Virus record (IMG/VR): IMGVR_UViG_3300030708_003161 | Span: 1 to 60,954 of that record | Direction: 5' to 3' (one strand) | Origin: a virus | Lineage: Duplodnaviria > Caudoviricetes | Length of the DNA: 60,954 nt | In this document: positions 1,800 to 44,546 of the stretch, piece by piece | Layout: every line of letters begins with the position of its first letter | How positions within the stretch are numbered: position 1 is the stretch's first letter | Notes under the pieces: generated by a model | Databases searched by the model: none | What the model was told of the DNA's origin: nothing | The model's input: the letters and a program-made list of their open reading frames with translations, nothing else | Program-made: the position numbers and the translations under genes

Positions 1800-3395
1800 A
1801 TGGGAGTACAATTCGGTGGGCCTAAAATAGTTAAGGCCCTTAGTTTTAAAAAAGAAGCCAAAGATGGCCTTATTAAAGGTATTAAAAAGTTATCAAATGC
1901 CGTATCAGTAACACTGGGTGCATCTGGTAGAACAGTAGTTTTAGAAGATGACTTTGGCAATCCTCATGTAACAAAAGACGGTGTTACAGTAGCAAATTAT
2001 GTAAACCTAGAAGATCCACTAGAAAATCTAGGTGCTACTATGTTGAAGCAAGCCGCAAAACAAACAGCAACAAAAGCAGGCGACGGTACAACAACATCCA
2101 CAGTGCTAGCTGAAAACATAATGAAAAGTTACTTTAATTTAAAAGGAGAAGACTTTTCGTTTAGAGATATTAAAAGCGGTATAGATAAGTTTGTAAAAAA
2201 AGTCGTAGAGTTTTTAGATAAAAAAGCATCACCGGTAGATGAAAAGATGTTAAATCACGTATCTACCATTTCTTGTAACAATGACAAAGAGCTTGGAAAC
2301 TTTATTGCGGATGCGTTTAAATTAGCAGGTGAAAATGGTGTAGTAACAATGGAAACATCACCAACAAATGAAACCTATATAGATTCAGTAAACGGTACAC
2401 ATATAAAGTCAATAAGTAAAAGTATACACTTTTATACTAATAGAGAAAAAGAAGTGTCGGAGCTTGAGAAGCCGTTAATATTCCTATGTGCTTCTGATAT
2501 AGATAATATCCGACGTATTCAAACAATATTAGAGTTCGCGATTAAGTCCAACCAGTCGTTGTTACTCATTGCTCCTTGCGACCAGCAAATCATTTCAGCA
2601 TTAGCTATGAATTTCGTAAAGGGCAATATACGTTGCAATGTTATCGATCCTCCTTCTTTCGGACTTAAAAGAAAGGATATACTGGATGACATTGCCCTTT
2701 TAACGGGTGCAACTGTTATAGATGAAAATCTAGGCGACTCACTAGATAATATTACATCTGATGTGCTCGGTAATGCATCAAAGGCTATAATTGATACAGA
2801 TGGTACAACTATAGCTATAGATGAGATTCCAGAAGGAGTCAAAGAAAGAGTTGAGTATCTTCAAAAACAATTAGATGAAGAAGAACACCATATAATGAGG
2901 CCGCATTTAGAATATAGGTTATCTATATTAAATGGCGGTGTTTCAATGGTTTATGTTGGCGGAGATACTGAAGTGGAAGTATCAGAAAAAAAAGATAGAG
3001 TTGACGATGCAATTCATGCTGTTAGAGCTGCAAAGAAAGAAGGTATACTACCGGGAGGTGGTATAGCACTGGTAGCAGCAGCGAGTATGGATTGGGATTT
3101 AACACTCAATCAAGGTGAATTAAAAGGTGTTGATATAATGAAAGAAGCACTTTTATCACCATATAATACAATACTAAGCAATGCAGGATTAAATCCTGAA
3201 GATTTTAAAGGTATATCATTTAAAAAAGGTGTTGACGTAATAGACGGCAGCATAAAAGATATGATAAAAGCCGGTATAGTCGATCCACTGCTTGTAACTA
3301 AATCAGCGCTGTTAAATGCTGTATCAGTTGCAACTACTATACTTTCAACCGATTGTGTAATTTCAAATGTTAGAGATTATGAAAGCGATAGGTAA
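1800..3395 (+). CDS. groEL: Phage chaperonin GroEL (Cpn60)
   Basis: VTKDGVTVA, AGDGTTT, KDRVDDAIHA, GILPGGG and GIVDP motifs; 531 aa; no GGM tail. Confidence 0.97.
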   Translation: MGVQFGGPKIVKALSFKKEAKDGLIKGIKKLSNAVSVTLGASGRTVVLEDDFGNPHVTKDGVTVANYVNLEDPLENLGATMLKQAAKQTATKAGDGTTTSTVLAENIMKSYFNLKGEDFSFRDIKSGIDKFVKKVVEFLDKKASPVDEKMLNHVSTISCNNDKELGNFIADAFKLAGENGVVTMETSPTNETYIDSVNGTHIKSISKSIHFYTNREKEVSELEKPLIFLCASDIDNIRRIQTILEFAIKSNQSLLLIAPCDQQIISALAMNFVKGNIRCNVIDPPSFGLKRKDILDDIALLTGATVIDENLGDSLDNITSDVLGNASKAIIDTDGTTIAIDEIPEGVKERVEYLQKQLDEEEHHIMRPHLEYRLSILNGGVSMVYVGGDTEVEVSEKKDRVDDAIHAVRAAKKEGILPGGGIALVAAASMDWDLTLNQGELKGVDIMKEALLSPYNTILSNAGLNPEDFKGISFKKGVDVIDGSIKDMIKAGIVDPLLVTKSALLNAVSVATTILSTDCVISNVRDYESDR

Positions 3396-3639
3396 GTATA
3401 TAGTAATATCCGAAATAAAAGAGGATATAAAGAAAACAGAAGGTGGATTACTTCTTGCTGAAAACCACAGAGAAGATATAAGATACAGAACAGCTACAGT
3501 GGTATCAATTGGTACACATGTAGAAGGTGTAAAGAATGGCGACAAAATTTATTATGATAGAGTCGCAGGACACAATATAGAAATAGATAACAATATATTT
3601 AAAGTAATACAAGAACAAGACGTAATAATAGTATTGTAA
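3379..3639 (+). CDS. groES: Co-chaperonin GroES (Cpn10)
   Basis: KTEGGLLL mobile loop, VVSIG, VKNGDKIYY, QDVI; directly downstream of groEL. Confidence 0.92.
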   Translation: MKAIGKYIVISEIKEDIKKTEGGLLLAENHREDIRYRTATVVSIGTHVEGVKNGDKIYYDRVAGHNIEIDNNIFKVIQEQDVIIVL

Positions 3640-12770: not shown

Positions 12771-13181
12771 ATGAAAAAAAAATTTAAAGATACTGCAGTT
12801 GGAAAATTTTTATTGAAAAAAATACCAACTGTAGTCGGATCAATAGCCACCGGTACACCAGCCGGTGGTATCATAGAAGCTATAATAGGTAGTAGTGAAA
12901 TGTCTGATGGCGATAAACAAATTGCTTTAGAAAAACTAAAACTTGAAAGAGCTGAAATAGACGGGACAACAGAAAGATGGGTCGCAGATGCTGGCTCGGG
13001 AGCATGGCTTGCGGCTAATGTTCGTCCTTTAACATTAATATTTTTAACAGTAAGCTATGTAATTGGGTGGTACTTAGGTTATCCACTTGATTCAATAACC
13101 GGTTTATTAACAATAGTAATCGGAGGCTATTTCGGATCGCGAGGCGTGGAGAAAGTCTTTGGGAATAAAATGCACAAATAA
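12771..13181 (+). CDS. Holin (3TM/GTA-type-like)
   Basis: WLAANVRPLTL, hydrophobic helices and GGYFGSRGVEK; upstream of the endolysin. Confidence 0.75.
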   Translation: MKKKFKDTAVGKFLLKKIPTVVGSIATGTPAGGIIEAIIGSSEMSDGDKQIALEKLKLERAEIDGTTERWVADAGSGAWLAANVRPLTLIFLTVSYVIGWYLGYPLDSITGLLTIVIGGYFGSRGVEKVFGNKMHK

Positions 13182-13183
13182 AA

Positions 13184-13333
13184 ATGCAAGACTTAAGAAT
13201 TTATGGTATAAGTTTAGGTGGTATAACCTTTTCTATAATGCCAGATATAAATCCGCTGCTACAAACAGTAGTATTATTATTAACAATAGTATATACCTTA
13301 ATAGGTATAAAAAATAAATTAAATAATAAATAA
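13184..13333 (+). CDS. Small membrane protein (possible second holin or antiholin)
   Basis: MQDLRIYGISLGGITFSIMPDINPLLQTVVLLLTIVYTLIGIKNKLNNK*; fills the gap between holin and endolysin. Not in the ORF track. Confidence 0.65.
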   Translation: MQDLRIYGISLGGITFSIMPDINPLLQTVVLLLTIVYTLIGIKNKLNNK

Positions 13334-13334
13334 A

Positions 13335-13685
13335 ATGCCTTTAAAATATTTTAATGAATCTGAATTCAATCAGTTTAAAATGATGAACAAAAAGCTTCTT
13401 AATATGTTAGATAACTTACGAGAAGTATATGGTTCACCAATAAAAATAACATCAAGTTATAGAAGCCCTGATCATCCAATAGAAGCAAAGAAAAAAGCAC
13501 CAGGGGAACATGCATATGGTAATGCTGTTGATATTGCAAGCGTAGGTGGTGAGGCAACATTTAAATTGGTTAAAGCTGCTATGGAAGTTGGCTTTACAAG
13601 AATAGGTGTAAGTAGAAAAAATAATTTTGTCCACGTGGGTATTGGTTATCCCGGTGCTCCTGAAATAACTCTTTGGACGTATTAA
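13335..13685 (+). CDS. Endolysin, peptidase M15A family
   Basis: ITSSYRS, H..GNAVDI and FVHV zinc-peptidase motifs. Confidence 0.88.
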   Translation: MPLKYFNESEFNQFKMMNKKLLNMLDNLREVYGSPIKITSSYRSPDHPIEAKKKAPGEHAYGNAVDIASVGGEATFKLVKAAMEVGFTRIGVSRKNNFVHVGIGYPGAPEITLWTY

Positions 13686-13697
13686 ATAAAATTTAAA

Positions 13698-13958
13698 GTG
13701 AAACAATTCTTAATTGAATTTATTATAATTATAGCAATATTTTTTACATTAAAAATATTTTGGAATGCCAGAGTAAAGTTTTGGCTTGGTAATTTTGTAA
13801 TAGGAATGAATGTATTTGCATGCATATTATATCTGTATGGATTTTATACTAATATTATGCCATATGGTGAGGCATTTAGTAAAATATTATTACATTCTAT
13901 TGTAGCTATAATTATTCATACACTTTTTACTTTAGATGAAAAAAACAAAATTAAATGA
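13698..13958 (+). CDS. Three-TM membrane protein
   Basis: Three hydrophobic segments; GTG start; ATGA overlap with the next gene. Confidence 0.55.
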   Translation: MKQFLIEFIIIIAIFFTLKIFWNARVKFWLGNFVIGMNVFACILYLYGFYTNIMPYGEAFSKILLHSIVAIIIHTLFTLDEKNKIK

Positions 13959-14173
13959 AATTAATAAGAAAAATATCAATTGGCCAAGATTATAAAAATG
14001 AGGCTATGCATTATTCTGTAGGCCAAGAAGTTTATGGTGGCCATATAATATGTGATATATTTGAAAAAGAAGATGGTTATCATATATATATAGAAAAAGA
14101 TAATAATCAAATACCTTGGAAACACTTTAATACAAATATGGCAGTTTCTGTAGAATACAATTTAGATTATTAA
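13955..14173 (+). CDS. Conserved hypothetical protein upstream of the packaging module
   Basis: IRKISIG.DYKN.AMHY.VGQ.VYGGH; translationally coupled on both sides. Confidence 0.75.
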   Translation: MKLIRKISIGQDYKNEAMHYSVGQEVYGGHIICDIFEKEDGYHIYIEKDNNQIPWKHFNTNMAVSVEYNLDY

Positions 14174-14769
14174 TGAAATCACTTTACAATTATATTATAT
14201 ATACTGACAGCAGATACGACAATAAAAAAAACATTGATGGTAAAGAGCTTATACTTAATTCAGAATTATCTGAAAGAGATTATAAGTTTGTTAATAGAAT
14301 AGGTACAGTTAAAAGTGTACCTATAAATTATAAAACTAAAATACAACCAGGTGATAAAGTAATTGTTCATCATAATGTTTTTAGAAGATGGATTGATGTT
14401 AAGGGTAAAGAAAAAAATTCATCATCATATATTGATGAAAATATTTATTCTGTAAGTCCAGATCAGGTATATGCGTACAAAAATAATGGCAAATGGAAAT
14501 GTCCTGATAGATATTGTTTTGTTAAGCCATTACCGCAAGATTTTAAATGGAGTGTTTTAAAAGAAAAAGAATTGGTTGGAGAGCTTATATATAGTAGTAA
14601 GCTTTTAAGCTCGTTAAACGTGTCCGTAGGCGATATAGTGGGCTTTACACCAGGTTCTGAATATGAATTTAATATTGAAAACCAAAAATTATACAGAATT
14701 TTATTAAATGATATAACAATAAACTATGGACGTAAAGAAAACAAGAGAAAGACTACTCAAAGCTGCTGA
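14173..14769 (+). CDS. GroES-like protein (tandem GroES-fold domains)
   Basis: Two copies of a G.V.. / (I/V)..GD.V pattern (IQPGDKVIVHH, VSVGDIVGF). Confidence 0.65.
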   Translation: MKSLYNYIIYTDSRYDNKKNIDGKELILNSELSERDYKFVNRIGTVKSVPINYKTKIQPGDKVIVHHNVFRRWIDVKGKEKNSSSYIDENIYSVSPDQVYAYKNNGKWKCPDRYCFVKPLPQDFKWSVLKEKELVGELIYSSKLLSSLNVSVGDIVGFTPGSEYEFNIENQKLYRILLNDITINYGRKENKRKTTQSC

Positions 14770-14983
14770 AAACTCTATAGATGAGTTAATAAAAGTTATG
14801 AATAAAAAGATGGATCCAGAAGAACTAGATCCTGAAAAAGTAAAAATATCAGCATCAGCTTATAGATTAGCTATGGAAGATGCTATGGCTATGATGGCTA
14901 AAGTAGAAGAAATTACAAATGTAGGTAAAGAAGACAAATCTAAAAAACAAGAATTCTTCGGTGTAGAAGATCGTATTAAATAA
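14726..14983 (+). CDS. Putative terminase small subunit
   Basis: Short helical protein immediately upstream of and coupled to terL. Confidence 0.55.
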   Translation: MDVKKTRERLLKAAENSIDELIKVMNKKMDPEELDPEKVKISASAYRLAMEDAMAMMAKVEEITNVGKEDKSKKQEFFGVEDRIK

Positions 14984-17223
14984 TGTATAAACAAAGCTTA
15001 TATAAGATACACACCGAACATTTATCATCTAAGTTAGTTAAAAATAATAATAGATATAAAAAATTCGAGTACGGTTACAATAAAGATTTAGATTGTGTTG
15101 TTATAAGTAAAGACGGTACAATAGGTGAAATATACGAAATACAAGGATTAAAAATTGCACTTCCTTCAATACCTAAAAAAATTAACGGTCAAGAGTTAAA
15201 AAAAGAAGAACAGGTATTTATTAAAACACCAAAACCGGCTACACTTAAAAAAATTAAAAGTATATATAATTTTAAGTCGTATAACGAAGATATAAAAGAA
15301 AAGTATTATGAATACATTAATAAAGAGTTTGATTTTCGTTCTGATGGTTACTGGTTCATGTGCAACGGTAAGCCATGTTACCTCACCGGCTCCCATTATA
15401 TATACCTCAATTGGACAAAGATTGATGTGGGCTCACCCGACTTTAGGCATGCAAACAGAATATTTTTTTATTTCTGGGAGGCATGTAAGGCCGATTATAG
15501 ATGTTATGGAATGTGCTACCTCAAGAATAGACGGTCTGGTTTCTCCTTTATGGCGTCTTCAGAAGTTGTCAACGTTGCAACTATTACCAGAGATGCACGG
15601 TTTGGGATATTATCAAAGACTGGTGCAGATGCAAAAAAGATGTTTACAGACAAGGTTGTACCGATTTCCACAAACTACCCGTTCTTTTTTAAACCAATAC
15701 AGGACGGTATGGAGAGGCCAAAGACAGAATTATCGTACAAGGTACCATCGAGAAGGCTCACAAGAAAGACAATACAGGCAACCACCCAAACCACCGAAGA
15801 GGGTGATCAGATGGGACTTGACACCACCATCGACTGGAAGAATACAGGTGACAATTCCTACGACGGGGAGAAATTACAGATCCTCGTCCATGATGAATCG
15901 GGTAAGTGGGAGAAGCCGGATAACATTCTCAATAACTGGAGGGTCACAAAAACGTGTCTCCGTCTCGGTTCGAAGATAGTTGGTAAATGTATGATGGGAT
16001 CTACATCTAATGCATTAGACAAAGGCGGTAGTAATTTTAAAAAAATTTATAATGACTCAGATCTCACAAAGAAAAAGCGAAATCGCAATGGGCAGACTGC
16101 TAGTGGATTATATGCTTTGTTCATACCTATGGAATGGAACTTCGAAGGATTCATTGACAAATTTGGTTTTCCTGTCTTCGACACTCCGGAAACTCCGGTT
16201 GAAGGAATTGACGGGGAACTTATCTACAACGGAGTTATCGATCATTGGGAGAATGAAGCAGATGGGCTCAAAGATAATGCCGACGCTTTAAACGAATATT
16301 ATAGGCAGTTTCCTAGAACTGAAAAACATGCATTTAGAGATGAAACAAAAGAATCTATATTTAATCTATCAAGAATATACGAACAAATAGATTTTAATGA
16401 AGAAATGGTTGCATCAGGATATGTAACAACAGGTTCTTTCCAATGGAAAAACGGTGTTAAAGATACCGAAGTACAGTTTTATCCTAACCCCAATGGAAGA
16501 TTTAAAATATCTTGGATACTTCCAACAGATATGCAAAACAATATAGAGTTTAAAAATGGTATTAAATATCCAGGTAATAAAGCTTACGGTGCTTTTGGAT
16601 GTGATAGCTATGATATAAGCGGAACAACAGATGGTGGTGGTTCAAATGGATCATTACATGGATTAACAAGTTTTTCGTTATCACCAGATGTTCCTAAATC
16701 ACAATTCTTTTTAGAATATATTGCAAGGCCACAAACAGCTGAAATATTTTTTGAAGATGTATTAATGGCAATAGTGTTTTATGGTATGCCAATACTTGCA
16801 GAAAATAATAAACCAAGATTATTATATCATTTAAAAAGAAGAGGTTATAGAGGGTTTTCTATGAACCGACCAGATAAAGTTAGAAATAAATTATCTGTAA
16901 CAGAAAAAGAATTAGGTGGTATACCTAATACATCAGAAGATATAAGACAAGCTCATGCTTCTGCAATAGAATCTTACATAGAAGAACATGTGGGTATAAC
17001 AAATGAAGAGCATGGTAGAATGTATTTTCAAAGAACACTCGAAGATTGGTCTAAGTTTAATATAAACAATAGAACAAAGTTTGATGCTTCAATAAGTAGT
17101 GGTTTAGCTATAATGGCTTGCCAAAGACATTTATATGCTCCAAGAGCAGAAAGACAAACAAAAAAAATAGATTTTGGATTTTCTAAATATAACAATTCAG
17201 GATTAAAAAGTAAAATATTATAA
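14983..17223 (+). CDS. terL: Terminase large subunit
   Basis: Walker A-like KNRRSGFS, Walker B LVHDESGK, motif III GSTSN, RNase H-like GCDSYD...ENN...DASISSGLA. Confidence 0.93.
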   Translation: MYKQSLYKIHTEHLSSKLVKNNNRYKKFEYGYNKDLDCVVISKDGTIGEIYEIQGLKIALPSIPKKINGQELKKEEQVFIKTPKPATLKKIKSIYNFKSYNEDIKEKYYEYINKEFDFRSDGYWFMCNGKPCYLTGSHYIYLNWTKIDVGSPDFRHANRIFFYFWEACKADYRCYGMCYLKNRRSGFSFMASSEVVNVATITRDARFGILSKTGADAKKMFTDKVVPISTNYPFFFKPIQDGMERPKTELSYKVPSRRLTRKTIQATTQTTEEGDQMGLDTTIDWKNTGDNSYDGEKLQILVHDESGKWEKPDNILNNWRVTKTCLRLGSKIVGKCMMGSTSNALDKGGSNFKKIYNDSDLTKKKRNRNGQTASGLYALFIPMEWNFEGFIDKFGFPVFDTPETPVEGIDGELIYNGVIDHWENEADGLKDNADALNEYYRQFPRTEKHAFRDETKESIFNLSRIYEQIDFNEEMVASGYVTTGSFQWKNGVKDTEVQFYPNPNGRFKISWILPTDMQNNIEFKNGIKYPGNKAYGAFGCDSYDISGTTDGGGSNGSLHGLTSFSLSPDVPKSQFFLEYIARPQTAEIFFEDVLMAIVFYGMPILAENNKPRLLYHLKRRGYRGFSMNRPDKVRNKLSVTEKELGGIPNTSEDIRQAHASAIESYIEEHVGITNEEHGRMYFQRTLEDWSKFNINNRTKFDASISSGLAIMACQRHLYAPRAERQTKKIDFGFSKYNNSGLKSKIL
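15308..15979 (+). CDS. Candidate overprinted lipoprotein in the +1 frame of terL
   Basis: 223 stop-free codons in an AT-rich genome; N-terminus MNTLIKSLIFVLMVTGS-C is lipobox-like; local shift of terL codons to C-ending. Confidence 0.55.
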   Translation: MNTLIKSLIFVLMVTGSCATVSHVTSPAPIIYTSIGQRLMWAHPTLGMQTEYFFISGRHVRPIIDVMECATSRIDGLVSPLWRLQKLSTLQLLPEMHGLGYYQRLVQMQKRCLQTRLYRFPQTTRSFLNQYRTVWRGQRQNYRTRYHREGSQERQYRQPPKPPKRVIRWDLTPPSTGRIQVTIPTTGRNYRSSSMMNRVSGRSRITFSITGGSQKRVSVSVRR

Positions 17224-17225
17224 TA

Positions 17226-19586
17226 ATGGCAGAAGCTACAGGATATACAACTCAATTTCCCAGCCAATCGGTTGATGACGCTACAAAAGCTAGTGAAAAG
17301 TACGGATTGGAAGTGGCAAGAGGTATAAAAAATGAGTGGTTTAGAAAAAGTGCCGGTACGGGTAGGTTTCTTCAAAACCAACGAGAGTTCCATAGACTAA
17401 AATTATATGCTAGAGGTGAACAGTCAATACAAAAATATAAAGATGAATTTTCTATAAATGGTGATTTATCATATTTAAATCTTGATTGGAAACCTGTACC
17501 TATAATTCCAAAGTTTGTTGATATAGTTGTAAATGGTATGCAGGATAGATTATTTACAATTAAAGCATTTGCACAAGATCCTTCTTCTACAAAAAAAAGA
17601 ACTGATTTTGTAGAAATGACGCTTGAGGATATGAATACAAAGGATTTTATAAAACAAGTTGAAACAAAGTTAGGTGTAAATATTGAAAACTTTTCAGGTC
17701 AACCTACTCCTGAAAGCGATGAAGAGCTTGAATTACATATGCAAATAGGATACAAACAAGCTATTGAGTTGGCTCATGAGCAAGCTATTGACAATGTATT
17801 TAAAAGAAATCATTATTATGAACTTAAAAAACGTTTAGATTATGACCAAACTGTCCTGGGTATATCTTGTGCTAAGCATACTTTTAATAATACTGACGGT
17901 ATTAAACTCGAATACGTAGATCCTGCTAATTTAATATATTCTTATACGGAAGATCCTAATTTTCAAGATGTATATTATTTTGGTGAAATAAAACAAATAA
18001 AATCTAATGAGCTTAAAAAACAATTTCCTGAATTATCAGATGAAGAGTTTGAAGATTGTGTAAGAAGATCTAGTAAGATTAATCAATATGATTATACAAA
18101 TAATGATTCTAATGATTCATATGATTCCAATACATTAACTGTAATGTATTTTAATTATAAAACATGGGAACAAAGTGTATTTAAAATAAAAGAAACATCC
18201 TCTGGTGCTAAAAAAGCAATTAAAAAAGATGATACTTTTAATCCACCTAAAGATCAAAGAACAAGATTTGAAAGAGTAGCACAAGCAAGAGAAGTTATAT
18301 ATGAAGGTGTTATGGTTTTAGGTGCTAATAAACTTTTAAAATGGCAAAAAGCTGAAAACATGGTTCGTCCTGACTCAAATGTAAATACGGTTATGATGAA
18401 TTATGTTGTTAGTGCGCCTAGATTTTATAAAGGTAAAATTGAAAGCCTAGTTAGCAGAATGGTTACTTATGCTGATTTAATACAATTAACACATTTAAAA
18501 TTACAGCAAGTAATACAAAGAATGACACCATCTGGTGTATTTGTAGATGCTGATGGATTATCTGAAATAGATTTAGGAAATGGTACAAACTATAATCCAC
18601 AAGAAGCATTAAATTTATATTTTCAAACAGGATCTATTATCGGTCGTTCAATGACTGTAGATGGTGACGCAAACCCAGGTAAAGTACCTATTCAAGAACT
18701 ACCAGGAGGTGGGGGTCAGCAATCGGCACTTTTAATACAGTCGTATAATTATTATTTAAATATGATAAGAGATGTGACTGGATTAAATGAAGCAAGAGAT
18801 GGCTCTGATCCAGATCCTCATGCTTTAGTTGGTGTACAAAAATTAGCAGCTGCAAATTCTAATACAGCTACTAGACATATATTACATAGTTCTATGTATA
18901 TAACTAGTGAACTAGCAGAAGCAATATCTATAAGGTTAAAAGATGTATTAGCTTATCATCCTCAAAGAGATATATTTATTAAAAGCTTAGGAAGATTTAC
19001 GGTAGGTGCATTAAAAGAAATAAACAATATACATTTACATGATTTTGGTGTATTTATAGAATTAGATCCTGATGAAGATGAAAAACAATTAGTTGAAAAT
19101 AATATACAACAAGCTTTATCTAAAGATCAAATACAATTAGAAGATGTAATAGATATTAGAGCAATAAAAAATATAAAATTAGCTAATCAATTATTAAAAT
19201 TTAGAAGAGCTAAAAAAGCGGCTGCAGATCAAGTTAAAGCAGAAAGAAATATTGCTGCTCAATCGCAAGCTAATGCTCAGGCTGCACAAGCTGCTGAAAT
19301 GGCAAAAGCTCAAGCTGAAACTGTAAAAGTTGAATCAAAAATGAAGCTTCAAGAAGCACAGAAAAATTTTGATATACAAAAACTTGAAACAGAGGCTAGA
19401 ACAAAAAAAGAGTTAATGCAGTTTGAATTTGATTTAAATATGAAATTAAAGCAAATGGAGTTAGATTCAAAAGAAAAAATGGAGCTTAGTAAACCTGTAC
19501 GAAGTGCAAAACCTTCTAAGCCATTTGAATCTAAAGGTAACGATGTTTTAGGTGGAATCGATCTTTCAAGATTTGAACCTAAATAA
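17226..19586 (+). CDS. Portal protein
   Basis: 786 aa directly after terL; PIIPKFVDIVVNG, IRDVTGLNEARDG, C-terminal coiled coil. Confidence 0.88.
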   Translation: MAEATGYTTQFPSQSVDDATKASEKYGLEVARGIKNEWFRKSAGTGRFLQNQREFHRLKLYARGEQSIQKYKDEFSINGDLSYLNLDWKPVPIIPKFVDIVVNGMQDRLFTIKAFAQDPSSTKKRTDFVEMTLEDMNTKDFIKQVETKLGVNIENFSGQPTPESDEELELHMQIGYKQAIELAHEQAIDNVFKRNHYYELKKRLDYDQTVLGISCAKHTFNNTDGIKLEYVDPANLIYSYTEDPNFQDVYYFGEIKQIKSNELKKQFPELSDEEFEDCVRRSSKINQYDYTNNDSNDSYDSNTLTVMYFNYKTWEQSVFKIKETSSGAKKAIKKDDTFNPPKDQRTRFERVAQAREVIYEGVMVLGANKLLKWQKAENMVRPDSNVNTVMMNYVVSAPRFYKGKIESLVSRMVTYADLIQLTHLKLQQVIQRMTPSGVFVDADGLSEIDLGNGTNYNPQEALNLYFQTGSIIGRSMTVDGDANPGKVPIQELPGGGGQQSALLIQSYNYYLNMIRDVTGLNEARDGSDPDPHALVGVQKLAAANSNTATRHILHSSMYITSELAEAISIRLKDVLAYHPQRDIFIKSLGRFTVGALKEINNIHLHDFGVFIELDPDEDEKQLVENNIQQALSKDQIQLEDVIDIRAIKNIKLANQLLKFRRAKKAAADQVKAERNIAAQSQANAQAAQAAEMAKAQAETVKVESKMKLQEAQKNFDIQKLETEARTKKELMQFEFDLNMKLKQMELDSKEKMELSKPVRSAKPSKPFESKGNDVLGGIDLSRFEPK

Positions 19587-37361: not shown

Positions 37362-40300
37362 ATGGAAGAATTAAATAGTATTATTGGGGAAATGATTGCT
37401 AACGGGGAGCCGCAAGAAGTAATGGATGCTGTAATTGCAGAATGGGAAAACCGAAACCCAGGTGTATTAAATAACGAATCATTAAATACAGAACCTTTAG
37501 GCACTGAACAATCTAATTTTGATGAAATAATACCTGAAGATCAAAATTGGTTTGAAAGAAATATTGGAGATAATATACCCGGTATTGAGTTTATGAGTGA
37601 TTTATATAGAGATATACAAAGGGGTATTGCTATAGGTCAAACTACAGACGAAAAAGCTAGATTATTCACAGGAGATAGTTCAGATGAAGCAATTCAAGAT
37701 TATATTAAAACCACTAAAGAAGTTGGTGAGTTAAAGCAATCTGAAGAAATGCAACAATATAATAAATTTTTGCAAGAATATAAAGATCAAGGTGACTCCG
37801 ATGCATTAGCTTGGTTTAAAGCACAGGCTAAGTCAACTTTAAAAGGTGATGGTGTTTTAATGGGTATGTTTGCAGAATCATTAGCTTCTCAGGCTTCTAC
37901 AATATTTGCATCACCTGGGCAAGCCGCAATAGTAGGAGCAGGAGCTTTTACTGGAGCAAAAGTAAGTGGAGCTATAGGTGCGGCGGCTAGCAGCTGGACA
38001 GGGCCTTTAGCAGGTGTTTTTTCTGCTTTTAGTGCCGCTGGTGGTGCAGTAGCAGGTGCAAGGTCTGCTTCTATGGGTATATTAGAAACAACCTCAACAT
38101 TTAATGATTTATTATCTGAAAAAATAAAAGAAAGAGGAGGCGATCCATTAAATGCTGAAGATATTAGAGCTGTACTTGAAGATGAAGAAGCAATGGGTGA
38201 ATTAAGAAGAAATTCATTAGCGAGAGGATTTACTATTAGTGCATTTGAAGGAGCTGCTGGATTAGTTGGAGCAGGTGTTGCTGCTAAAACTGTAGTTTCA
38301 AAAGCAGGCAAATTTGTAAGAGCTTCTAAAGTAGCCGGAGTTGAAGCCGTAGGTGGTGGTACTGGTGAATTTGCGGGTCAATTAGCAGCCGGTCAAGATA
38401 TAAATGTAGAAGAAATACTAACTGAAGCATTTACAGGTACAGGTATGGCTGCAACAAGTATTGCAGCAGGACAGTTTAATAGAAAAGGTATTGCAGAATA
38501 TAATTTAAATGGTGAGAAAGATGCAAAGCTTAGAGGTGAAATTGAAGATCTTGTAGAAAATGGTACAGATGAACAGTTTGTAAATAGTAAAGTAAAAGTT
38601 GAAAACGATAAAACTCTTCAAGATAAAATAAATAAAAGAAGAAAAAAGATTGTTAAAGAAAACAAACAAGTAGTAAAAGATAAAATTAAACCTAAAGTTG
38701 TTGAAGAAGTTGAAAAAAGAATTGATGCAAAAATTTTAAAACTACAACAACAAATAAAACAAGTTGAAAAAGAAGATGGCCCAGTTGCTGCTGCTGCTTT
38801 TAAAAAACAACTAGAAATAGAAAAAAAGAAGAAAGAAGATATTAATAAAATCATGTTTGAGCAGTTAGATCAATTAAGTGAAGAAGAAACACTTAATTTG
38901 ATGAACATGGATGACGAAGTATCTATTTATCAGTCTATATTAAATGATCCTAATTCTACTGAGTTAGCAAAACAATCTGCAAAAGAACAATTAGCTTTAT
39001 TAAAAGCAGCACAATTAGAAGTAGTAAACAATCCTGATTCTGTTGATATGGCTAAAGAAGATGGACCAGTAAGTAAAAAGAATAAAGACTTATCTGATAA
39101 AACTCAAAAGGCTTACGAAAGAAAAGGTAAAGATGCATGGGCTGAAGTTTCAGAATATCAAGCAGGTATTATAAATACTATAGCACATTCTATGTGGTCT
39201 AAAATACCAAAAGAAAAAAGAGTAGGCACTATAGAAGATTTTATATCTGGTCTTAAAAGTGATAAAGAAGGGATAAGAGGATTACTTAAAACTTATGATC
39301 CTACAACAGGTGTGCCTTTAGCTGCTTATATCCAAAATCCTATATCTGGAATAAGAGTAAGAGCTAATAGGATAATAAAAAGATATGTAAAGCAAGACAT
39401 AGAAGAAGATGTAACTAGTCAACAGTTTAAAGATTATTATACTACAGAAGAAGCTATAGATTTAGATAGAAGATATTTACACGAGAAGCTTAAATTAAAT
39501 CCTATATTAGCAGATTTAGAAAGTACAACAGAGGTAGCATATCAAAAAGCTAGAAATGAATTAGAAACAATAGGTAATGTTACACAGAAAAAACAAAGAA
39601 AAGCTTTAATAAAAGCATTTGATAAAATATTTAAAGGTAAATATGATAAAAAAATAAAAGACTTTGTAGGTAAAAATACTAAATCTGAAAAAACATTTAG
39701 TAAATTTTTAAAAGATAATTTACCTGCATTAAAATTAGCGGTGGTTGCAAATATTAATTCTCAAATGTCTAATGATAATATTATGAGTACGTGGACAAAG
39801 GTTCCTCCTACCGATCAAGATTTTTTAGATTATTATGAAGGTAAAGATATTAGCCCTGACCAACCTGCTAGTGTTAAAAGTGATAGAAAAACAAAATTAG
39901 TAGAAGCTATTAGAAGACAATTAGGTATAGACGCCCGCGCTTCCTTTAGAGAACAATTTGCTGAAGATCTACCTCAATTTCAACAAATCGATGAAGTCGA
40001 AGTATTTAATTCTAAAGATTTTTTAGATAAACTAAATTTTATTTTTACAGAACCCAGCGAGGTTATTGGTAAAGAAGCTAAAGATGTAGAAGATGCTGAG
40101 GTAGAAAACAATATTAACAAAGTTATAGAAAATCAAATTGTTCCAAATTTAAATAAAAACTTTGATAACCAAAATACTAAAAAGTTAGATCCTAATAATG
40201 AAAATGATTTGCCAGAAATTTATGAAGAATGGCAAAGCTATATTACTAAAGGTTATGTATCTCCTGCTGTATTACAAAAAATGGGACAGTTTGGAGCTAA

Positions 40301-43300
40301 GGTTGCTTATAAAGATATAAATGGTAAATTTCATCCTACTAAAACAGCTGCTAAATTAGGTAATGATAAAGCTAAGCCTAAAAAGTATTATGAAATGAAA
40401 GAGGCTGTAGAGGGAAGTGAAGAGTCTAATGGAAAACAATATTTACCGTTTGACATTGACACTAAAAACCCTGAGCTTGAAGGAAAATTTAAACCTGCAA
40501 GAGGCGGTTTATATTATGGTACTGTAGATCCCTTATATAAAAACCATTTAAAATTAGCTCAAGAAAAATATCCTAAACAAAAAATTTCTAAAAAAGGAAA
40601 ATTAAATTTATTTGGTAAAATAAATAATGTAATATCAAATAATTTAGTAAATTATCCTATATTAAAAAAATTAGTAGACGGTTATGCTTCAAGTGTACAA
40701 GACAATCAAGAAATTGTTATGCAAATGGCTGAAGATATGGCGGATGCTATCCAAAAAGGAGAAGCAAATCCGTGGGTTATGTCATTAGGATTAAAAACTG
40801 CATATAAAGGTACTGATGGATTATTAAAAACTTCATATGAATTTAAAGGATATGAGCAAGGTACCTTAGAATTTGGAGATGGTAAATTTGCAGAAAATTA
40901 TAAAGGTAACTCTAAGCGTAGAGTAAGAGAAGAACACTCCCCACCTGTTAGTTCATTTGCAGCTAAACTTTTATTAGCTACATCTATGGTAAAATCTGAA
41001 AACATGCGTCCTCTCATTCAAAAAATGTATAAGGATGCAGGGCAATATTTAATTTCTTTTAAGCATGATCAAGATTTAGAAACCGCTAAGTTAGGTGCTA
41101 GTATTGTAGAGGGAGATGTAATTGGGCAAAACTCAGGACTACATAGAATTTTACAAGTTATTCCTGCAAATAAATTAGTTTTAATTAAAGATAATATTAC
41201 TGTAGAAGAATTAAATGATAAAATTAAAGATGCAATTCAAACAAAAAAGCCTGCAGAAAGAATATTACAAGGCGTAACACAGCAATTTGAACAGGATAAT
41301 CAGCAAGATATTCCTTTATCAGATAACGAAAGAATAGAAGCATTTACTGATATACTTAGTTTAGCTTATCCTGATAAAATCATAATGACTAACAGAGAAG
41401 ATGTTATTAAATATCTAACAGCTAATTTTCCTAGAAAATTTCCAAATAGAAAAGCAGCAGAAAAAGTTATAGATAATGCAAGAGGATTTAGAGATAGTAA
41501 TGTTATATTTCTTAATCCCGGAAAAGCTACTTTAGAAACGGTAATGCATGAATTTACTCATGAATGGGCTTATATAGTTAAAGATAGAGATCCTGAATTA
41601 TTCAACGCTATATATGAAAAAATACAAGGGCACCCTAGATTTAAAGAGGCTGTTGAAAGAATGAAAGAACCTGGAGTTGGTGGTTATAGCGAAATGAGTC
41701 CTGATTCATTTGAATATAAAAATGAAGTAATAGCTTATATATTAGGAAAAGAAGGCTCATCTCTTTATGAATTATTTGCAGGTGATGCTGAAGCTAAATC
41801 TTTAATAGATAAGTTCTTTGATTATGTAAGAGAAGCTTTAGGTTTTGATCCTACAGTTAAAAACTTTTCAGATTTAACAGTTGAAGAAGTAATTAAATTA
41901 ACTGTTAAAGATATTGTAGAGGGTAATCCTGCTGCTAATTTTGATAAATTAAAAAATAAATCTGAAGGTAAAAGTTGGTTTGCTAAAACAGAAGCAAATC
42001 AAAGTCCTAGTCAAAAAGCTAAATTAGATCCTATATTAAGAGCTTTTAATAAAATTAAATTATCATATAGAGAAAATAAAGATTTAGCACAAGCTATTGT
42101 TGACGCTTATCCAGAAGTAGAAAGCAGCATGGAGTTTGGTGATTTTGTTAAATTAGTATTACAAAATACTAAAGAAACTGAAATAGGTGAATCTAAAACG
42201 CTTCTTATAGCAAAAAATGATGTATTAAAAGCAAATAAAATAGCTGAAGAAAGTACTAAAAAGTTAGAACAAGATAAAATTAAAGAAGAAGATAAATCTA
42301 CTCTTCAAAATAAATTTAGAAGAATGATTTATAAAGCCGCAGCGGAAGGGGCAAAAGCATCTAGATGGTTTATACCACCAAGTGCTGAAGACTTTAAAGG
42401 TTTGCTATACACGTTTTTACCAAAAGGCAAAGCTGGTGTTGAAGCCCGTAAATTTTTAGAAGAACATTTATTAAAACCTTATTCTGATGGTATTGCTGCC
42501 CTTGATACTGAAATATTAAATAAAAGTAAAGCTTGGGAAAAAATGTCTAAAGGATATAACCTTAATGAAAAAGTAGAGGGTACTCCATATACAATAGGCG
42601 ATGCTATAAAAATTTATAATGCTGTTAAGCGTGGTGATGATGTTACTATTGCAAAACAAAAACACATGGATGCTTTAATTCATAAAGTTGAAAGTGATCA
42701 AAGTCTTTTAGATTTAGCTGAAGCTATTGAAGAAAGTTTTCCTATTGATATAAAAGATGGGTGGCAAAATAAAACTTTAGCTAAAGAAGTATTTGATGCT
42801 ATTAATAATGGTGCTAGAGAAAGAGCTTTAAAAACTTTTTCTGAAAATGTAGATGCAATATTTAATGATACCACAATGGATCTTATTGGTGATCAATTTG
42901 GAAACAACTTTAAACAAGCATTAAAAAACACCCTTAGAAGGATGAAATCTGGTCGTAATAGGGTAAGTACAGACGCACAGTCTAATGTGTGGTTAAACTG
43001 GATTAATAGAGCCGTAGGGACGACTATGTTCTTTAATAGCAGATCAGCTTTGCTGCAAACTATTTCATCTCTTAATTTTATAGGATTAAAAGATAACAAT
43101 ATATTTCAAGCAGCAGCTGCATATGCAAATAGAAAACAATTTCAAGAAGATTATAAAAAATTATGGAATAGTGACTATTTAAAAAATAGAAGAGACGGTG
43201 CAAAGTTTGATGTACTAGCAGATGAAATTGCAGAAGGAGATCCACAAGGAATAAATAAATTATTAAAAAACGGATTTCTACCAACTAGATATGCAGATAG

Positions 43301-44546
43301 TTTTGCTATTGCTTTAGGAGGTGCGGCGTTTTATAGAAATAGAGTAAATGCTTTAGTTAAGCAAGGGATGGATGTAAAGCAAGCTGAACAACAAGCTATG
43401 AATGATTGGAGAAAAGAAGCTGAAAATTCACAGCAATCTGCAGATCCTTCTAAAATATCTGAAATACAAGCATCGTCACTTGGTAGAATTATATATGCTT
43501 TTGCTAATACACCTTTCCAGTATGCTAGAATTGTTAAAAGAAGATTACAAGATATAACATCTGGTAGGTCTGCAGCTGAAGGTAGAGTACAAAGTGATCT
43601 TGGTACTATATTATATTATGGGGCTGTGCAAGCTGTAATGTTTAATGCATTACAATCAGGGTTAGCTGCTCTTGCTTTTGGAGATGATGATGATGAAGAA
43701 ATTAAAAAACTAAAAGATAAAAAATATTTAATGTCTATTGAAAGAGGTTTAACTTCTTTTGCTAAATCTTTAGGTAATCCAGGTGCGGTTTCTGCTACAC
43801 TTTATTCTTTAATGAAAGAAGGGTATTTGCAACAAACAGGACAAAAAAGACCTGATCCAAATGCTTTTGCAATAACAGCTACAAGCATATCACCACCTAT
43901 AAATTCTAAACTTAGAGATTTAGCTTCTGCTTATAGATCATTTAATAAAATAGATGAGGATGATTTGTTAACACCTTCTTTAGACAATGAAGCTTTAACT
44001 ATGTCTGGTGAAATCGCTTCTTTTGCAGGTGTACCTTTAGATAGAGTAATTCGTAAAGCTAGACACTTAGCAGCTATTAAAAATGAAGAATTAGAAGCTT
44101 GGCAAAAATTATGGTTAGTATTAGGATGGAATGAATGGGATTTAGGTGTTGATACTAAAGTTAGTAAAAATTTATTTCAAGAGGCGGAATTTGATAGTGA
44201 TGATTTTAAAGAAGCAGAGTTTGAAGAATCAACATTTAAAAAATTAAAACCCGGTGTTGCAGGTGTAGCAAATAATGATGGAACTATAGAATTAGATCCT
44301 AATTTATCACCTGAAGAAAAAAGAAAAACTATACAACACGAGAAGCAACATTTGCTTGATATGAAAAATAAAAAAATAAAGTTAAACTACGACGATAACT
44401 TTGTTTATTATAAAAATAAAAAATATAAAAGAGCAAATGGTAATATAGTATATAACGGGAAATCCTATATAGAGGGTCACCCAGACTTGCCTTGGGAAAA
44501 GAGGGCATATAAAGCAGAGAAAACTAGAAAGTTTTTGTATGCATAA
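37362..44546 (+). CDS. Giant polyvalent virion/ejection protein (G/A-rich membrane segment, sigma-like segment, two HExxH motifs)
   Basis: 2394 aa; YDPTTGVPLAAY; MHEFTH; C-terminal QHEKQH...LPWEKRAY. Confidence 0.78.
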   Translation: MEELNSIIGEMIANGEPQEVMDAVIAEWENRNPGVLNNESLNTEPLGTEQSNFDEIIPEDQNWFERNIGDNIPGIEFMSDLYRDIQRGIAIGQTTDEKARLFTGDSSDEAIQDYIKTTKEVGELKQSEEMQQYNKFLQEYKDQGDSDALAWFKAQAKSTLKGDGVLMGMFAESLASQASTIFASPGQAAIVGAGAFTGAKVSGAIGAAASSWTGPLAGVFSAFSAAGGAVAGARSASMGILETTSTFNDLLSEKIKERGGDPLNAEDIRAVLEDEEAMGELRRNSLARGFTISAFEGAAGLVGAGVAAKTVVSKAGKFVRASKVAGVEAVGGGTGEFAGQLAAGQDINVEEILTEAFTGTGMAATSIAAGQFNRKGIAEYNLNGEKDAKLRGEIEDLVENGTDEQFVNSKVKVENDKTLQDKINKRRKKIVKENKQVVKDKIKPKVVEEVEKRIDAKILKLQQQIKQVEKEDGPVAAAAFKKQLEIEKKKKEDINKIMFEQLDQLSEEETLNLMNMDDEVSIYQSILNDPNSTELAKQSAKEQLALLKAAQLEVVNNPDSVDMAKEDGPVSKKNKDLSDKTQKAYERKGKDAWAEVSEYQAGIINTIAHSMWSKIPKEKRVGTIEDFISGLKSDKEGIRGLLKTYDPTTGVPLAAYIQNPISGIRVRANRIIKRYVKQDIEEDVTSQQFKDYYTTEEAIDLDRRYLHEKLKLNPILADLESTTEVAYQKARNELETIGNVTQKKQRKALIKAFDKIFKGKYDKKIKDFVGKNTKSEKTFSKFLKDNLPALKLAVVANINSQMSNDNIMSTWTKVPPTDQDFLDYYEGKDISPDQPASVKSDRKTKLVEAIRRQLGIDARASFREQFAEDLPQFQQIDEVEVFNSKDFLDKLNFIFTEPSEVIGKEAKDVEDAEVENNINKVIENQIVPNLNKNFDNQNTKKLDPNNENDLPEIYEEWQSYITKGYVSPAVLQKMGQFGAKVAYKDINGKFHPTKTAAKLGNDKAKPKKYYEMKEAVEGSEESNGKQYLPFDIDTKNPELEGKFKPARGGLYYGTVDPLYKNHLKLAQEKYPKQKISKKGKLNLFGKINNVISNNLVNYPILKKLVDGYASSVQDNQEIVMQMAEDMADAIQKGEANPWVMSLGLKTAYKGTDGLLKTSYEFKGYEQGTLEFGDGKFAENYKGNSKRRVREEHSPPVSSFAAKLLLATSMVKSENMRPLIQKMYKDAGQYLISFKHDQDLETAKLGASIVEGDVIGQNSGLHRILQVIPANKLVLIKDNITVEELNDKIKDAIQTKKPAERILQGVTQQFEQDNQQDIPLSDNERIEAFTDILSLAYPDKIIMTNREDVIKYLTANFPRKFPNRKAAEKVIDNARGFRDSNVIFLNPGKATLETVMHEFTHEWAYIVKDRDPELFNAIYEKIQGHPRFKEAVERMKEPGVGGYSEMSPDSFEYKNEVIAYILGKEGSSLYELFAGDAEAKSLIDKFFDYVREALGFDPTVKNFSDLTVEEVIKLTVKDIVEGNPAANFDKLKNKSEGKSWFAKTEANQSPSQKAKLDPILRAFNKIKLSYRENKDLAQAIVDAYPEVESSMEFGDFVKLVLQNTKETEIGESKTLLIAKNDVLKANKIAEESTKKLEQDKIKEEDKSTLQNKFRRMIYKAAAEGAKASRWFIPPSAEDFKGLLYTFLPKGKAGVEARKFLEEHLLKPYSDGIAALDTEILNKSKAWEKMSKGYNLNEKVEGTPYTIGDAIKIYNAVKRGDDVTIAKQKHMDALIHKVESDQSLLDLAEAIEESFPIDIKDGWQNKTLAKEVFDAINNGARERALKTFSENVDAIFNDTTMDLIGDQFGNNFKQALKNTLRRMKSGRNRVSTDAQSNVWLNWINRAVGTTMFFNSRSALLQTISSLNFIGLKDNNIFQAAAAYANRKQFQEDYKKLWNSDYLKNRRDGAKFDVLADEIAEGDPQGINKLLKNGFLPTRYADSFAIALGGAAFYRNRVNALVKQGMDVKQAEQQAMNDWRKEAENSQQSADPSKISEIQASSLGRIIYAFANTPFQYARIVKRRLQDITSGRSAAEGRVQSDLGTILYYGAVQAVMFNALQSGLAALAFGDDDDEEIKKLKDKKYLMSIERGLTSFAKSLGNPGAVSATLYSLMKEGYLQQTGQKRPDPNAFAITATSISPPINSKLRDLASAYRSFNKIDEDDLLTPSLDNEALTMSGEIASFAGVPLDRVIRKARHLAAIKNEELEAWQKLWLVLGWNEWDLGVDTKVSKNLFQEAEFDSDDFKEAEFEESTFKKLKPGVAGVANNDGTIELDPNLSPEEKRKTIQHEKQHLLDMKNKKIKLNYDDNFVYYKNKKYKRANGNIVYNGKSYIEGHPDLPWEKRAYKAEKTRKFLYA

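What the first reader, a model, noticed from the sequence alone, without database searches (positions are those of the whole stretch)
15308..15979. Hidden 223-codon lipoprotein-like gene overprinted on the terminase ATPase domain
Seen: the +1 frame of terL is stop-free for 223 codons, although NTA-(A/G) and NTG-A codon junctions make +1 stops frequent elsewhere in this genome. Over this span terL uses otherwise uncommon C-ending codons (ctc aag, gtc aac, atc gac, ctc aat, ctc ggt) where TTA/GTA/ATA would create stops. The ORF starts MNTLIKSLIFVLMVTGS-C (basic, hydrophobic, lipobox-like) and has an R/Y/Q/P-rich tail. The Cys arises at terL W-F-M-C (ATG TGC); an M-N there, which I recall from related terminases but have not verified, would give TGA. 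Established: nested lipoprotein genes exist (lambda Rz1 within Rz), but I know of none inside a terminase. Inference: a real dual-coding gene, perhaps an o-spanin, superinfection-exclusion or receptor-blocking lipoprotein. Caveat: +1 frames of AT-rich genes are inherently hydrophobic, so the signal peptide alone is weak evidence.
Basis: partly seen in the sequence, partly recalled or inferred. Interest (0 to 1): 0.88.

Follow-up and report, generated by a model that had tools for sequence, protein, structure and literature searches.

The report
Hidden exported-protein gene inside phage terminase
A second reading frame inside the DNA-packaging (terminase) gene of an uncultured marine phage is kept open by selection in many related phages, and most likely encodes a new exported, membrane-targeted, unstructured basic protein of unknown role.

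Summary
ORF 15308-15979 (223 aa) lies in the +1 frame of terL (14983-17223). Its openness is not chance. Synonymous-codon permutation that keeps the local codon usage expects 5.6 +1 stops; none are observed (0 of 5000 permutations stop-free). In an unbiased set of 80 relatives, 43 of 43 loci of the window's clade keep a +1 ORF of 133-240 codons. A second, ORF-targeted set added 79 holders.

Four signatures support translation:
- Only the +1 frame is depleted of stops.
- terL GC3 is about 0.5 inside the ORF against 0.1-0.25 outside, and it ends at each lineage's own stop.
- Stop depletion is lost downstream of lineage-specific truncating stops.
- 92 of 97 holders have one N-terminal hydrophobic segment, at either of two positions, followed by a body with no hydrophobic window.

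Against a conventional gene, terL synonymous divergence is not reduced, an OLGenie-like ratio equals the control, and AlphaFold gives pLDDT 38. Selection therefore appears to act on frame, composition and architecture, not on sequence.

The lipobox fits a relaxed rule only in the window's clade. Function is unknown; a late envelope or lysis role is a guess. No prior report turned up in three literature searches.

The parts
14983..17223 (+). terL (terminase large subunit), the host gene. Its frame is frame 0.
   Evidence: 746-aa ORF. phrog_6681, E 6e-164, covering residues 26-743. Portal gene follows at 17226-19586.
15308..15979 (+). Overlapping +1-frame ORF: 223 codons plus a TAG stop at 15977-15979.
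   Evidence: No +1 stops against 5.6 expected under local synonymous permutation. Conserved as an open frame in relatives.
15293..15295 (+). TAA in the +1 frame that closes the frame upstream. It is specific to the window's subclade, which has also lost the older ATG (equivalent to 15265) used by sister lineages.
   Evidence: terL reads 'ata aaa' here where other lineages read att/ttt/act/gtt aaa, and 'tat aat' where others read 'tat gat'.
15308..15358 (+). Predicted signal peptide (residues 1-17, MNTLIKSLIFVLMVTGS): Lys6, then a hydrophobic core.
   Evidence: Read from the sequence. Maximum 11-residue Kyte-Doolittle mean 2.62. Fits the PROSITE-type lipoprotein rule, which I recalled from memory, as one of only 3 ORFs in the window that do.
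15359..15361 (+). Cys18 codon (TGT, spanning terL ATG|TGC): candidate lipidation site.
   Evidence: The Cys is invariant in 44 of 44 sequences of the window's clade. In L006 it is kept even though terL Cys became Arg (ATG CGC).
15362..15976 (+). Mature part, 205 aa: hydrophilic, basic, probably disordered. The whole protein has pI 11.5 and a net charge (K+R minus D+E) of +27.
   Evidence: pI and charge; hydrophobic residues (F, I, L, M, V) are 0.23 of the body against 0.38-0.41 in control +1 frames; pLDDT below 50 for 210 of 223 residues; no hydrophobic window among 17210 body windows.
15283..16330 (+). Patch of raised third-position G+C in terL. GC3 is 0.40-0.60 up to about 16030 and 0.34-0.36 from there to about 16330, against 0.06-0.22 elsewhere in the gene.
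   Evidence: Highest 100-codon GC3 of any gene in the window: 0.58, next 0.43. Its extent tracks the lineage-specific end of the ORF.
12771..13685 (+). Context: lysis cassette on the same strand, 1.3-2.2 kb upstream. Holin at 12771-13181, endolysin/peptidase at 13335-13685.
   Evidence: phrog_3427, E 8.6e-13. phrog_894, E 2.1e-22.

Best explanation
The ORF is a genuine overprinted gene, translated in the +1 frame of terL. I infer that translation starts by internal initiation at ATG 15308 on the late lysis/packaging transcript. The product has a short N-terminal Sec-type signal peptide followed by about 205 residues of hydrophilic, strongly basic, probably disordered chain.

In the window's own clade the signal ends V-T-G-S-Cys, so the protein may be lipid-anchored at Cys18 (about 40% likely). 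In sister lineages it is more likely signal-anchored or simply secreted.

Selection maintains three things: the open frame, the composition, and the architecture of one hydrophobic head on a polar tail. It does not maintain the residue sequence. The gene is accessory. It was probably present in the ancestor of this group of uncultured marine phages, whose hosts are likely Flavobacteriaceae, and it has been truncated or lost repeatedly.

My guess at its role (about 20-25%) is a late cell-envelope function, such as helping to breach the outer membrane at lysis or masking the surface.

What is shown: selection on frame, composition and architecture. What is inferred: translation, export, lipidation and role.
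For: 1. Stop depletion is specific to the +1 frame.
- In 13 full-length lineages, 0 stops are observed against 4.2-8.3 expected under local synonymous permutation (P <= 0.0035 each, 2000 shuffles).
- The +2 frame and the three antisense frames are at expectation or above it.
- Five ORF-less relatives have 11-16 observed against 12.8-17.0 expected (P 0.10-0.69), so the null is calibrated.

2. Conservation.
- Of 80 loci picked only by TerL similarity, all 43 in the window's clade keep a run of at least 133 codons, and with the window 40 of 44 keep at least 202.
- 11 of the 37 other loci keep 138-182 codons.
- TerL identity across holders is about 75-80%, and synonymous sites are near saturation.
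- A second set of 79 analysed loci, ascertained through the ORF itself, all show 0 stops against 2.3-7.8 expected. Their GC3 is 0.39-0.61 inside and 0.10-0.32 outside.
- 134 database protein clusters (50% identity) match the profile.

3. Polarity.
- In 15 of 15 truncated lineages, stops are depleted upstream of the lineage's own stop (P <= 0.0245).
- In 13 of 15 they are not depleted downstream (P > 0.1).
- GC3 falls to background after each lineage's stop. Where the ORF ends at the 15655-equivalent it goes from 0.35 to 0.23 and 0.21. In full-length lineages it is 0.44, 0.53 and 0.63, then 0.31 and 0.18.

4. Composition changes that stop avoidance alone does not need. In codons that cannot create +1 stops, third-position C and G rise from 0.08 to about 0.25, and T falls from 0.42 to 0.21. 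This removes hydrophobic residues from the +1 product.

5. Architecture.
- 92 of 97 holders have a hydrophobic window in the N-terminal 32 aa, against 116 of 1540 control blocks and 2 of 27 ORF-less sequences.
- The body has 0 such windows among 17210.
- The hydrophobic segment sits at one of two non-homologous positions, and no holder scores above the threshold at both.

6. Openness is set by synonymous codon choice. Forced M-[IMTNK] stops are absent in 97 of 97 holders, and also in 21 of 27 ORF-less sequences.

7. No other gene in the window has such a GC3 patch. The structural genes have GC3 of 0.09-0.16.
Against: - No constraint on residue sequence was detected. Same-amino-acid codon differences inside the ORF are not lower than outside: 0.43 against 0.39 across lineages, and a pooled ratio of 1.30 in 84 closer pairs.
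- An OLGenie-like NN/NS ratio is 0.92 in holders against 0.90 in ORF-less controls. Only the signal-peptide part hints at constraint: 0.69 [0.46-1.04] against 1.12.
- AlphaFold with 23 sequences gives mean pLDDT 38.4 and pTM 0.16.
- The ORF has no significant Pfam match (best E 0.094) and no PHROG family. There was no usable ESM Atlas hit, and the recognition score of 1783 is below the usual 2300.
- Much of the apparent conservation of the +1 protein, including the G-(S/L)-C motif, is dictated by conserved TerL motifs.
- The basic charge is largely the default of this +1 frame: K+R is 0.16 against 0.12-0.21 in controls.
- The ORF is absent from all cultured relatives checked: elemoF, phi46:3, phi38:1, and also MW202828. 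It has been lost or truncated often, so it is dispensable.
- The lineages are related, so per-lineage P values are not independent.
- There is no expression data of any kind.
Confidence: 0.7

Rival explanations
1. The frame is translated but the product has no function of its own. Flavobacteriia initiate without a Shine-Dalgarno sequence, so an A-rich context plus an ATG forced by TerL (Y-D or Y-E) might give unavoidable internal initiation. Selection would then only shape a harmless, soluble, non-aggregating product, or it would favour the act of translation itself, for example to protect or unfold the mRNA.
For: There is no sequence-level purifying selection in the body. No fold is predicted. 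Losses and truncations are frequent. The start codons arise from common TerL dipeptides.
Against: A harmless outcome is reached most cheaply by an early stop, which is the state of the ORF-less lineages. Instead 200-240 codons are kept open in about a hundred sampled lineages. The N-terminal hydrophobic segment is maintained at one of two positions and is lost together with the ORF. That points to targeting, not mere tolerance.
Confidence: 0.15
2. By-product of a GC3-rich patch. Some non-coding force, such as mRNA or DNA structure, a packaging signal, local translation speed or recombination, keeps third positions G+C-rich in the ATPase part of terL. The +1 frame is open only because G+C-rich sequence has few stops.
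For: The ORF coincides with the GC3 patch. Where GC3 is low, stops are present. A milder GC3 rise (0.31 against 0.18) continues about 300 nt past the ORF end.
Against: Permutations that preserve the local codon usage still expect 4-8 stops where none is seen. Only the +1 frame of five alternative frames is depleted. Lineages with only moderate GC3 (0.31-0.38) still have zero stops up to their own terminator, against 4.4-5.9 expected in five of them (L017, L008, L010, L012, L021). Relaxation is polar, occurring downstream of each lineage's stop only. T is removed more than A at third positions, and the head segment goes the other way and is T-rich. Highly expressed structural genes have the lowest GC3.
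Confidence: 0.07
3. Frameshift product. Ribosomes translating terL shift into the +1 frame within the ORF, making a TerL N-terminal domain fused to the basic tail. There would be no independent initiation.
For: Database proteins exist that begin in the terL frame and continue in the +1 frame, such as P0040 and P0045.
Against: Those chimeras switch frames at varied places, some several times (P0058, P0064, P0081). P0040 also skips about 40 residues. This is what assembly indels look like. Every holder keeps an ATG followed by a basic stretch and a hydrophobic segment directly after the upstream +1 stop, which a fusion product would not need. I did not look systematically for a conserved slippery site.
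Confidence: 0.05

Closest known systems
Lambda Rz1 embedded in Rz (o-spanin inside the i-spanin gene; recalled, not checked in a call)
   Same: A gene wholly nested in the +1 frame of another late phage gene. It encodes a protein with a lipoprotein-type signal and an unstructured mature part that evolves fast.
   Different: The host gene here is the packaging ATPase, not a partner lysis gene. The mature chain is about 205 aa, not about 40. No i-spanin partner was identified. The ORF lies 1.6 kb downstream of the endolysin. The lipobox is missing in most relatives.
phiX174 E overprinted on D (single-gene lysis protein; recalled)
   Same: +1-frame overprinting. An N-terminal hydrophobic segment carries what constraint there is, and a basic C-terminal part is weakly constrained (one search shows the same asymmetry here).
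   Different: This is a 61-kb tailed phage with its own holin and endolysin. The product is 223 aa, not 91. The hydrophobic segment has signal-peptide length (about 10-16 residues). No link to cell-wall synthesis is known.
phiKT gp28 'disruptin' (bioRxiv 10.1101/515445; abstract read)
   Same: A cationic phage protein proposed to breach the outer membrane in a phage without recognisable spanins. The window likewise has no other lipobox ORF or obvious spanin pair.
   Different: gp28 is a 56-aa amphipathic helix without a signal peptide and is a free-standing gene. This ORF is four times longer, has no predicted amphipathic fold, and its charge is close to the default of this +1 frame.
De novo overprinted viral genes in general (listings and abstract starts seen: bioRxiv 10.1101/229690, PMC6195259, PMC8227390)
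   Same: Restricted phylogenetic range, biased composition, predicted disorder, and an accessory role.
   Different: Most documented cases are in small RNA or ssDNA viruses and show reduced synonymous change in the older gene. Here none is seen.

Membership tests
Bacterial lipoprotein (signal peptidase II substrate) | Basic N-terminal region followed by a hydrophobic core of about 7-20 residues | tested here: met
   Lys6, then SLIFVLMVT. Maximum 11-residue hydropathy 2.62.
Bacterial lipoprotein (signal peptidase II substrate) | Lipobox before an invariant Cys. Strict form [LVI][ASTVI][GAS]C; relaxed PROSITE-type rule. Both recalled from memory. | tested here: inconclusive
   V-T-G-S-C fits the relaxed rule but not the strict one, since positions -3 (Thr) and -2 (Gly) do not match. 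No SignalP or LipoP was available.
Bacterial lipoprotein (signal peptidase II substrate) | Lipobox conserved among orthologues | tested here: not met
   Position -1 is Ser in 32 and Leu in 12 of 44 sequences of the window's clade. The sister group ends (I/T)-(T/I)-C.
o-spanin (Rz1-like) | Lipoprotein gene embedded in, overlapping or adjacent to an i-spanin gene within the lysis cassette | tested here: not met
   The host gene is terL. Holin and endolysin lie 1.6-2.5 kb upstream. No i-spanin-like neighbour was found.
o-spanin (Rz1-like) | Short mature chain (tens of residues) | tested here: not met
   205 residues follow Cys18.
Overprinted (dual-coding) viral gene | Alternative-frame ORF longer than synonymous-codon nulls allow | tested here: met
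Overprinted (dual-coding) viral gene | ORF conserved across diverged relatives and restricted to one clade | tested here: met
   Absent from MW202828, elemoF, phi46:3 and phi38:1.
Overprinted (dual-coding) viral gene | Reduced synonymous rate in the host gene, or purifying selection on the new frame's residues | tested here: not met
   Only selection against nonsense codons and on composition is seen.
Overprinted (dual-coding) viral gene | Evidence of translation | not testable with these tools
   The sequencing-run tool was unreachable. No cultured ORF-bearing phage was found.
Disruptin (phiKT gp28-like) | Short cationic amphipathic helix | tested here: not met
   223 aa. No confident helix: pLDDT below 50 for 210 of 223 residues.

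The most novel reading that the evidence does not exclude
An old, widespread gene is written in the second frame of the packaging ATPase of marine Flavobacteriia phages. It makes an exported, membrane-tethered polycationic disordered protein that carries out the outer-membrane step of lysis, or blocks the cell surface, in phages that have no spanins. It would be a functional protein held by selection only through its frame, charge and polarity and its signal peptide, with a signal peptide that has moved along the gene during evolution.
Probability: 0.15. Interest if true: 0.9.

Novelty: new variant of a known kind. Interest (0 to 1): 0.75.

Why it matters
Nested genes are routinely missed by phage annotation.

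If it is translated, it shows three things:
- An essential motor enzyme can carry a second gene of more than 200 codons at almost no amino-acid cost.
- Selection can hold a protein by frame, composition and targeting signal alone.
- terL codon usage and terL-based trees and rate estimates in this group are distorted by a second layer of selection.

It also offers a candidate for the unknown envelope or lysis factors of Bacteroidota phages.

Tried and rejected
- Pfam and PHROGs on the ORF gave nothing significant.
- AlphaFold on a 23-sequence alignment gave no fold, so no fold search was run.
- The ESM Atlas gave no usable hit.
- Profile search of 1.84 billion representatives: all inspected hits are the same nested ORF or frame-switching chimeras (32 of 134 inspected). 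No free-standing homologue was seen among those 32.
- Synonymous-rate tests and an OLGenie-like count of my own found no sequence-level constraint. I report this as evidence against a conventional gene.
- The second +1 open stretch at 16019-16288 shows only weak depletion (P 0.002-0.5 in the window's clade, none elsewhere). I do not treat it as part of the gene.
- Search for a compensating free-standing lipoprotein in ORF-less relatives with long flanks: 1 of 11 ORF-less loci (L210, about 8 kb upstream) has a convincing one. The other 10 have none within 2.6-9.4 kb upstream. This is inconclusive.
- Translational-optimisation reading of the GC3 patch: rejected, because structural genes have the lowest GC3.
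- Forced-stop (Met-Asn type) reading of ORF loss: mostly rejected, because 21 of 27 ORF-less sequences have no forced stop.
- Three literature searches listed no paper describing a gene overlapping a terminase gene. This covers only the held open-access library, and supplements were not consulted.
Full report
**What is there**

The window (60,954 nt, 31.7% G+C) looks like a tailed-phage genome. A 746-codon ORF at 14983-17223 is the terminase large subunit (phrog_6681, E 6e-164). The portal gene follows it. A holin, an endolysin and a GroES-like gene precede it on the same strand.

It is 223 codons from its ATG and 227 from stop to stop. The rest of terL carries 33 +1 stops. terL third-position G+C is 0.40-0.60 from about 15283 to 16030. 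It is 0.14-0.22 before that and 0.06-0.18 after about 16330. No other gene in the window has such a patch: the best 100-codon GC3 is 0.58 here and 0.43 next. The 223-aa ORF is the longest nested ORF; the next is 142 aa.

**Is it chance?**

- Permuting synonymous codons over the whole gene gives a mean longest +1 run of 69 codons, maximum 158, in 3000 trials.
- Permuting only within the segment keeps its unusual codon usage, so it is conservative. It expects 5.57 stops. None of 5000 permutations was stop-free, and 1 of 5000 reached 227 codons.

**Relatives**

A scan of IMG/VR with TerL confirmed 597 of 599 stretches, and the best 80 were kept (68-99% identity). On the TerL tree the window falls in a clade of 44 tips (43 loci plus the window). 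All 44 keep a +1 run of at least 133 codons:
- 22 run to the same stop as the window (227-240 codons);
- 6 have 223-225 codons;
- 12 have 202-213 codons;
- 4 have 133-136 codons.

Of the other 37 loci, 11 keep 138-182 codons and 26 have runs of 101 or fewer.

Local permutation was repeated for 13 full-length lineages. Each showed 0 stops against 4.2-8.3 expected (P <= 0.0035 each). The +2 frame and the three antisense frames were at expectation or above it. Five ORF-less relatives were at expectation in the +1 frame. Cultured or named relatives do not have the ORF: MW202828 (62% TerL identity), Flavobacterium phage elemoF (46%), and Cellulophaga phages phi46:3 and phi38:1 (35-38%).

A profile of 23 +1 proteins hit 134 clusters among 1.84 billion representatives. 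Many belong to a second form. Using 11 of them as the query, I fetched 80 further loci. This set is biased towards holders. Of 79 analysed, all show zero stops against 2.3-7.8 expected. Their GC3 is 0.39-0.61 inside and 0.10-0.32 outside. terL is intact at 733-760 codons where the contig is complete.

**Signatures that point to translation**

1. *Third positions.* In codons with T at position 2, which are the only ones that can make +1 stops, A drops from 0.50-0.60 to 0.21 and C rises from 0.03-0.04 to 0.41. G stays at 0.06. In all other codons C and G both rise from 0.08 to about 0.25, and T halves from 0.42 to 0.21. Stop avoidance does not require this second change. terL position 3 is +1 position 2, so this removes hydrophobic residues. 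Hydrophobic residues (F, I, L, M, V) make up 0.23 of the ORF body. They make up 0.38 in ORF-less relatives and 0.38-0.41 in other parts of the same +1 frame.

2. *Co-extension and polarity.* The GC3 rise ends where each lineage's ORF ends. In 15 of 15 truncated lineages, stops are depleted upstream of the lineage's own stop (P <= 0.0245). In 13 of 15 they are not depleted downstream. A non-coding cause has no reason to relax only 3' of a stop codon in one frame.

3. *Architecture.* On a tree of 139 terL genes, the window's clade has a strongly hydrophobic segment at codons 110-124. The second form has one about 14 residues further on. ORF-less lineages lie nested among the second form. In most of them the strong segment is gone: 2 of 27 keep a window above the threshold, and many carry +1 stops in this stretch. 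Overall, 92 of 97 holders have an 11-residue window with mean hydropathy of at least 2.3 in the first 32 residues. The figures for comparison are 116 of 1540 control +1 blocks and 2 of 27 ORF-less sequences. The ORF body has no such window among 17,210.

4. *Cost to TerL is small.* Unavoidable stops (Met followed by Ile, Met, Thr, Asn or Lys) are absent in 97 of 97 holders. They are also absent in 21 of 27 ORF-less sequences, so openness is decided by synonymous choice.

Two anecdotes fit. In L006, TerL Cys became Arg while the +1 Cys was kept. The window's subclade lost the older ATG and acquired a TAA at 15293-15295, yet it has an ATG 12 nt later that is homologous to the start used by the second form.

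**What speaks against a conventional gene**

- terL synonymous differences are not lower inside the ORF. Across lineages the values are 0.43 inside against 0.39 outside. In 84 closer pairs the pooled inside/outside ratio is 1.30, and it varies widely between pairs, which suggests recombination.
- My OLGenie-like count gives NN/NS of 0.92 in holders and 0.90 in ORF-less controls. Only the signal-peptide part leans towards constraint: 0.69 [0.46-1.04] against 1.12.
- AlphaFold gives pLDDT 38.
- No family, atlas or named database match exists.
- Conserved residues of the +1 protein, including G-(S/L)-C, are largely imposed by TerL motifs.
- The positive charge is close to the default of this frame.
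- The lineages are related, so the many small P values are not independent. The near-saturation of synonymous sites between subclades and the repeated, polar losses reduce this concern but do not remove it.

**Interpretation**

The best reading (0.7) is a real overprinted accessory gene. Its product is an exported or membrane-tethered, basic, disordered protein, held by selection on frame, composition and targeting signal.

In the window itself the signal fits a recalled, relaxed lipoprotein rule. It is the only plausible lipoprotein candidate in the genome. The lipobox is not conserved, however: Ser in 32 of 44 and Leu in 12 of 44 in the window's clade, and no lipobox in the second form. I therefore put lipidation at about 40%.

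The gene lies on the same strand as the lysis cassette, 1.6 kb downstream of the endolysin gene, and would be made with late genes. No spanin pair is evident. A late envelope role is therefore my preferred guess at about 20-25%, either outer-membrane disruption comparable in effect to the phiKT disruptin (abstract) or surface masking. A look for compensating lipoproteins in ORF-less relatives was inconclusive.

The rivals are translation without function (0.15), a by-product of a GC3 patch (0.07) and a frameshift fusion (0.05).

**Novelty**

Three full-text searches found no description of a gene overlapping a terminase gene. Nested lipoprotein or lysis genes are known (Rz1 in Rz and E in D, both recalled), so the kind is known. 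What is new is the host gene, the length, the moving signal peptide and the lack of sequence constraint.

No earlier notes or expression data entered this report.

Noticed in passing
window 16019-16288 (ORF 16052-16291, 79 aa, +1 frame of terL): After the ORF's TAG and one further stop at 16016-18, the +1 frame is open for another 90 codons. Stop depletion is weak and inconsistent (P 0.002-0.5 in the window's clade, none elsewhere). terL synonymous diversity dips to 0.21-0.27 at 16018-16108 in the window's clade, against 0.39-0.48 in ORF-less lineages. Unexplained.
   Followed up: partly
window 1800-3639 and 14173-14769: The phage encodes a GroEL homologue (phrog_5725, E 1e-131), a GroES (phrog_3188) and a second, longer GroES-like protein just upstream of terL (phrog_13932, E 1e-23).
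   Followed up: no
window 44794-46536, 47134-48102, 50510-51382, 51578-53287 (- strand): The ribonucleotide reductase subunits, thymidylate synthase and primase/helicase genes have the next-highest local GC3 (0.35-0.43). Some carry nested ORFs of 101-142 aa. These were not tested with relatives or shuffles.
   Followed up: no
window 37801-38400, inside the 2395-codon gene 37362-44546: This 600-nt stretch ties for the highest G+C in the window (0.422) and has strong GC skew (0.31). It holds a 140-aa antisense ORF at 37889-38311.
   Followed up: no
database proteins P0028, P0033, P0040, P0045, P0050, P0058, P0064, P0081, P0084: These predicted proteins switch between the TerL frame and the +1 frame, some several times. 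They are most simply explained as assembly indels, but a real frameshift was not excluded.
   Followed up: partly
L210, about 7.5-8.1 kb upstream of terL: An ORF-less relative carries a free-standing 160-aa ORF with a textbook lipoprotein signal. It was the only such case among 11 ORF-less loci with long flanks.
   Followed up: no
window 13181-13340 and 13698-13958: Small ORFs flanking the endolysin gene encode hydrophobic, multi-span-looking peptides. They may be further lysis-cassette membrane proteins. Neither looks like a spanin.
   Followed up: no
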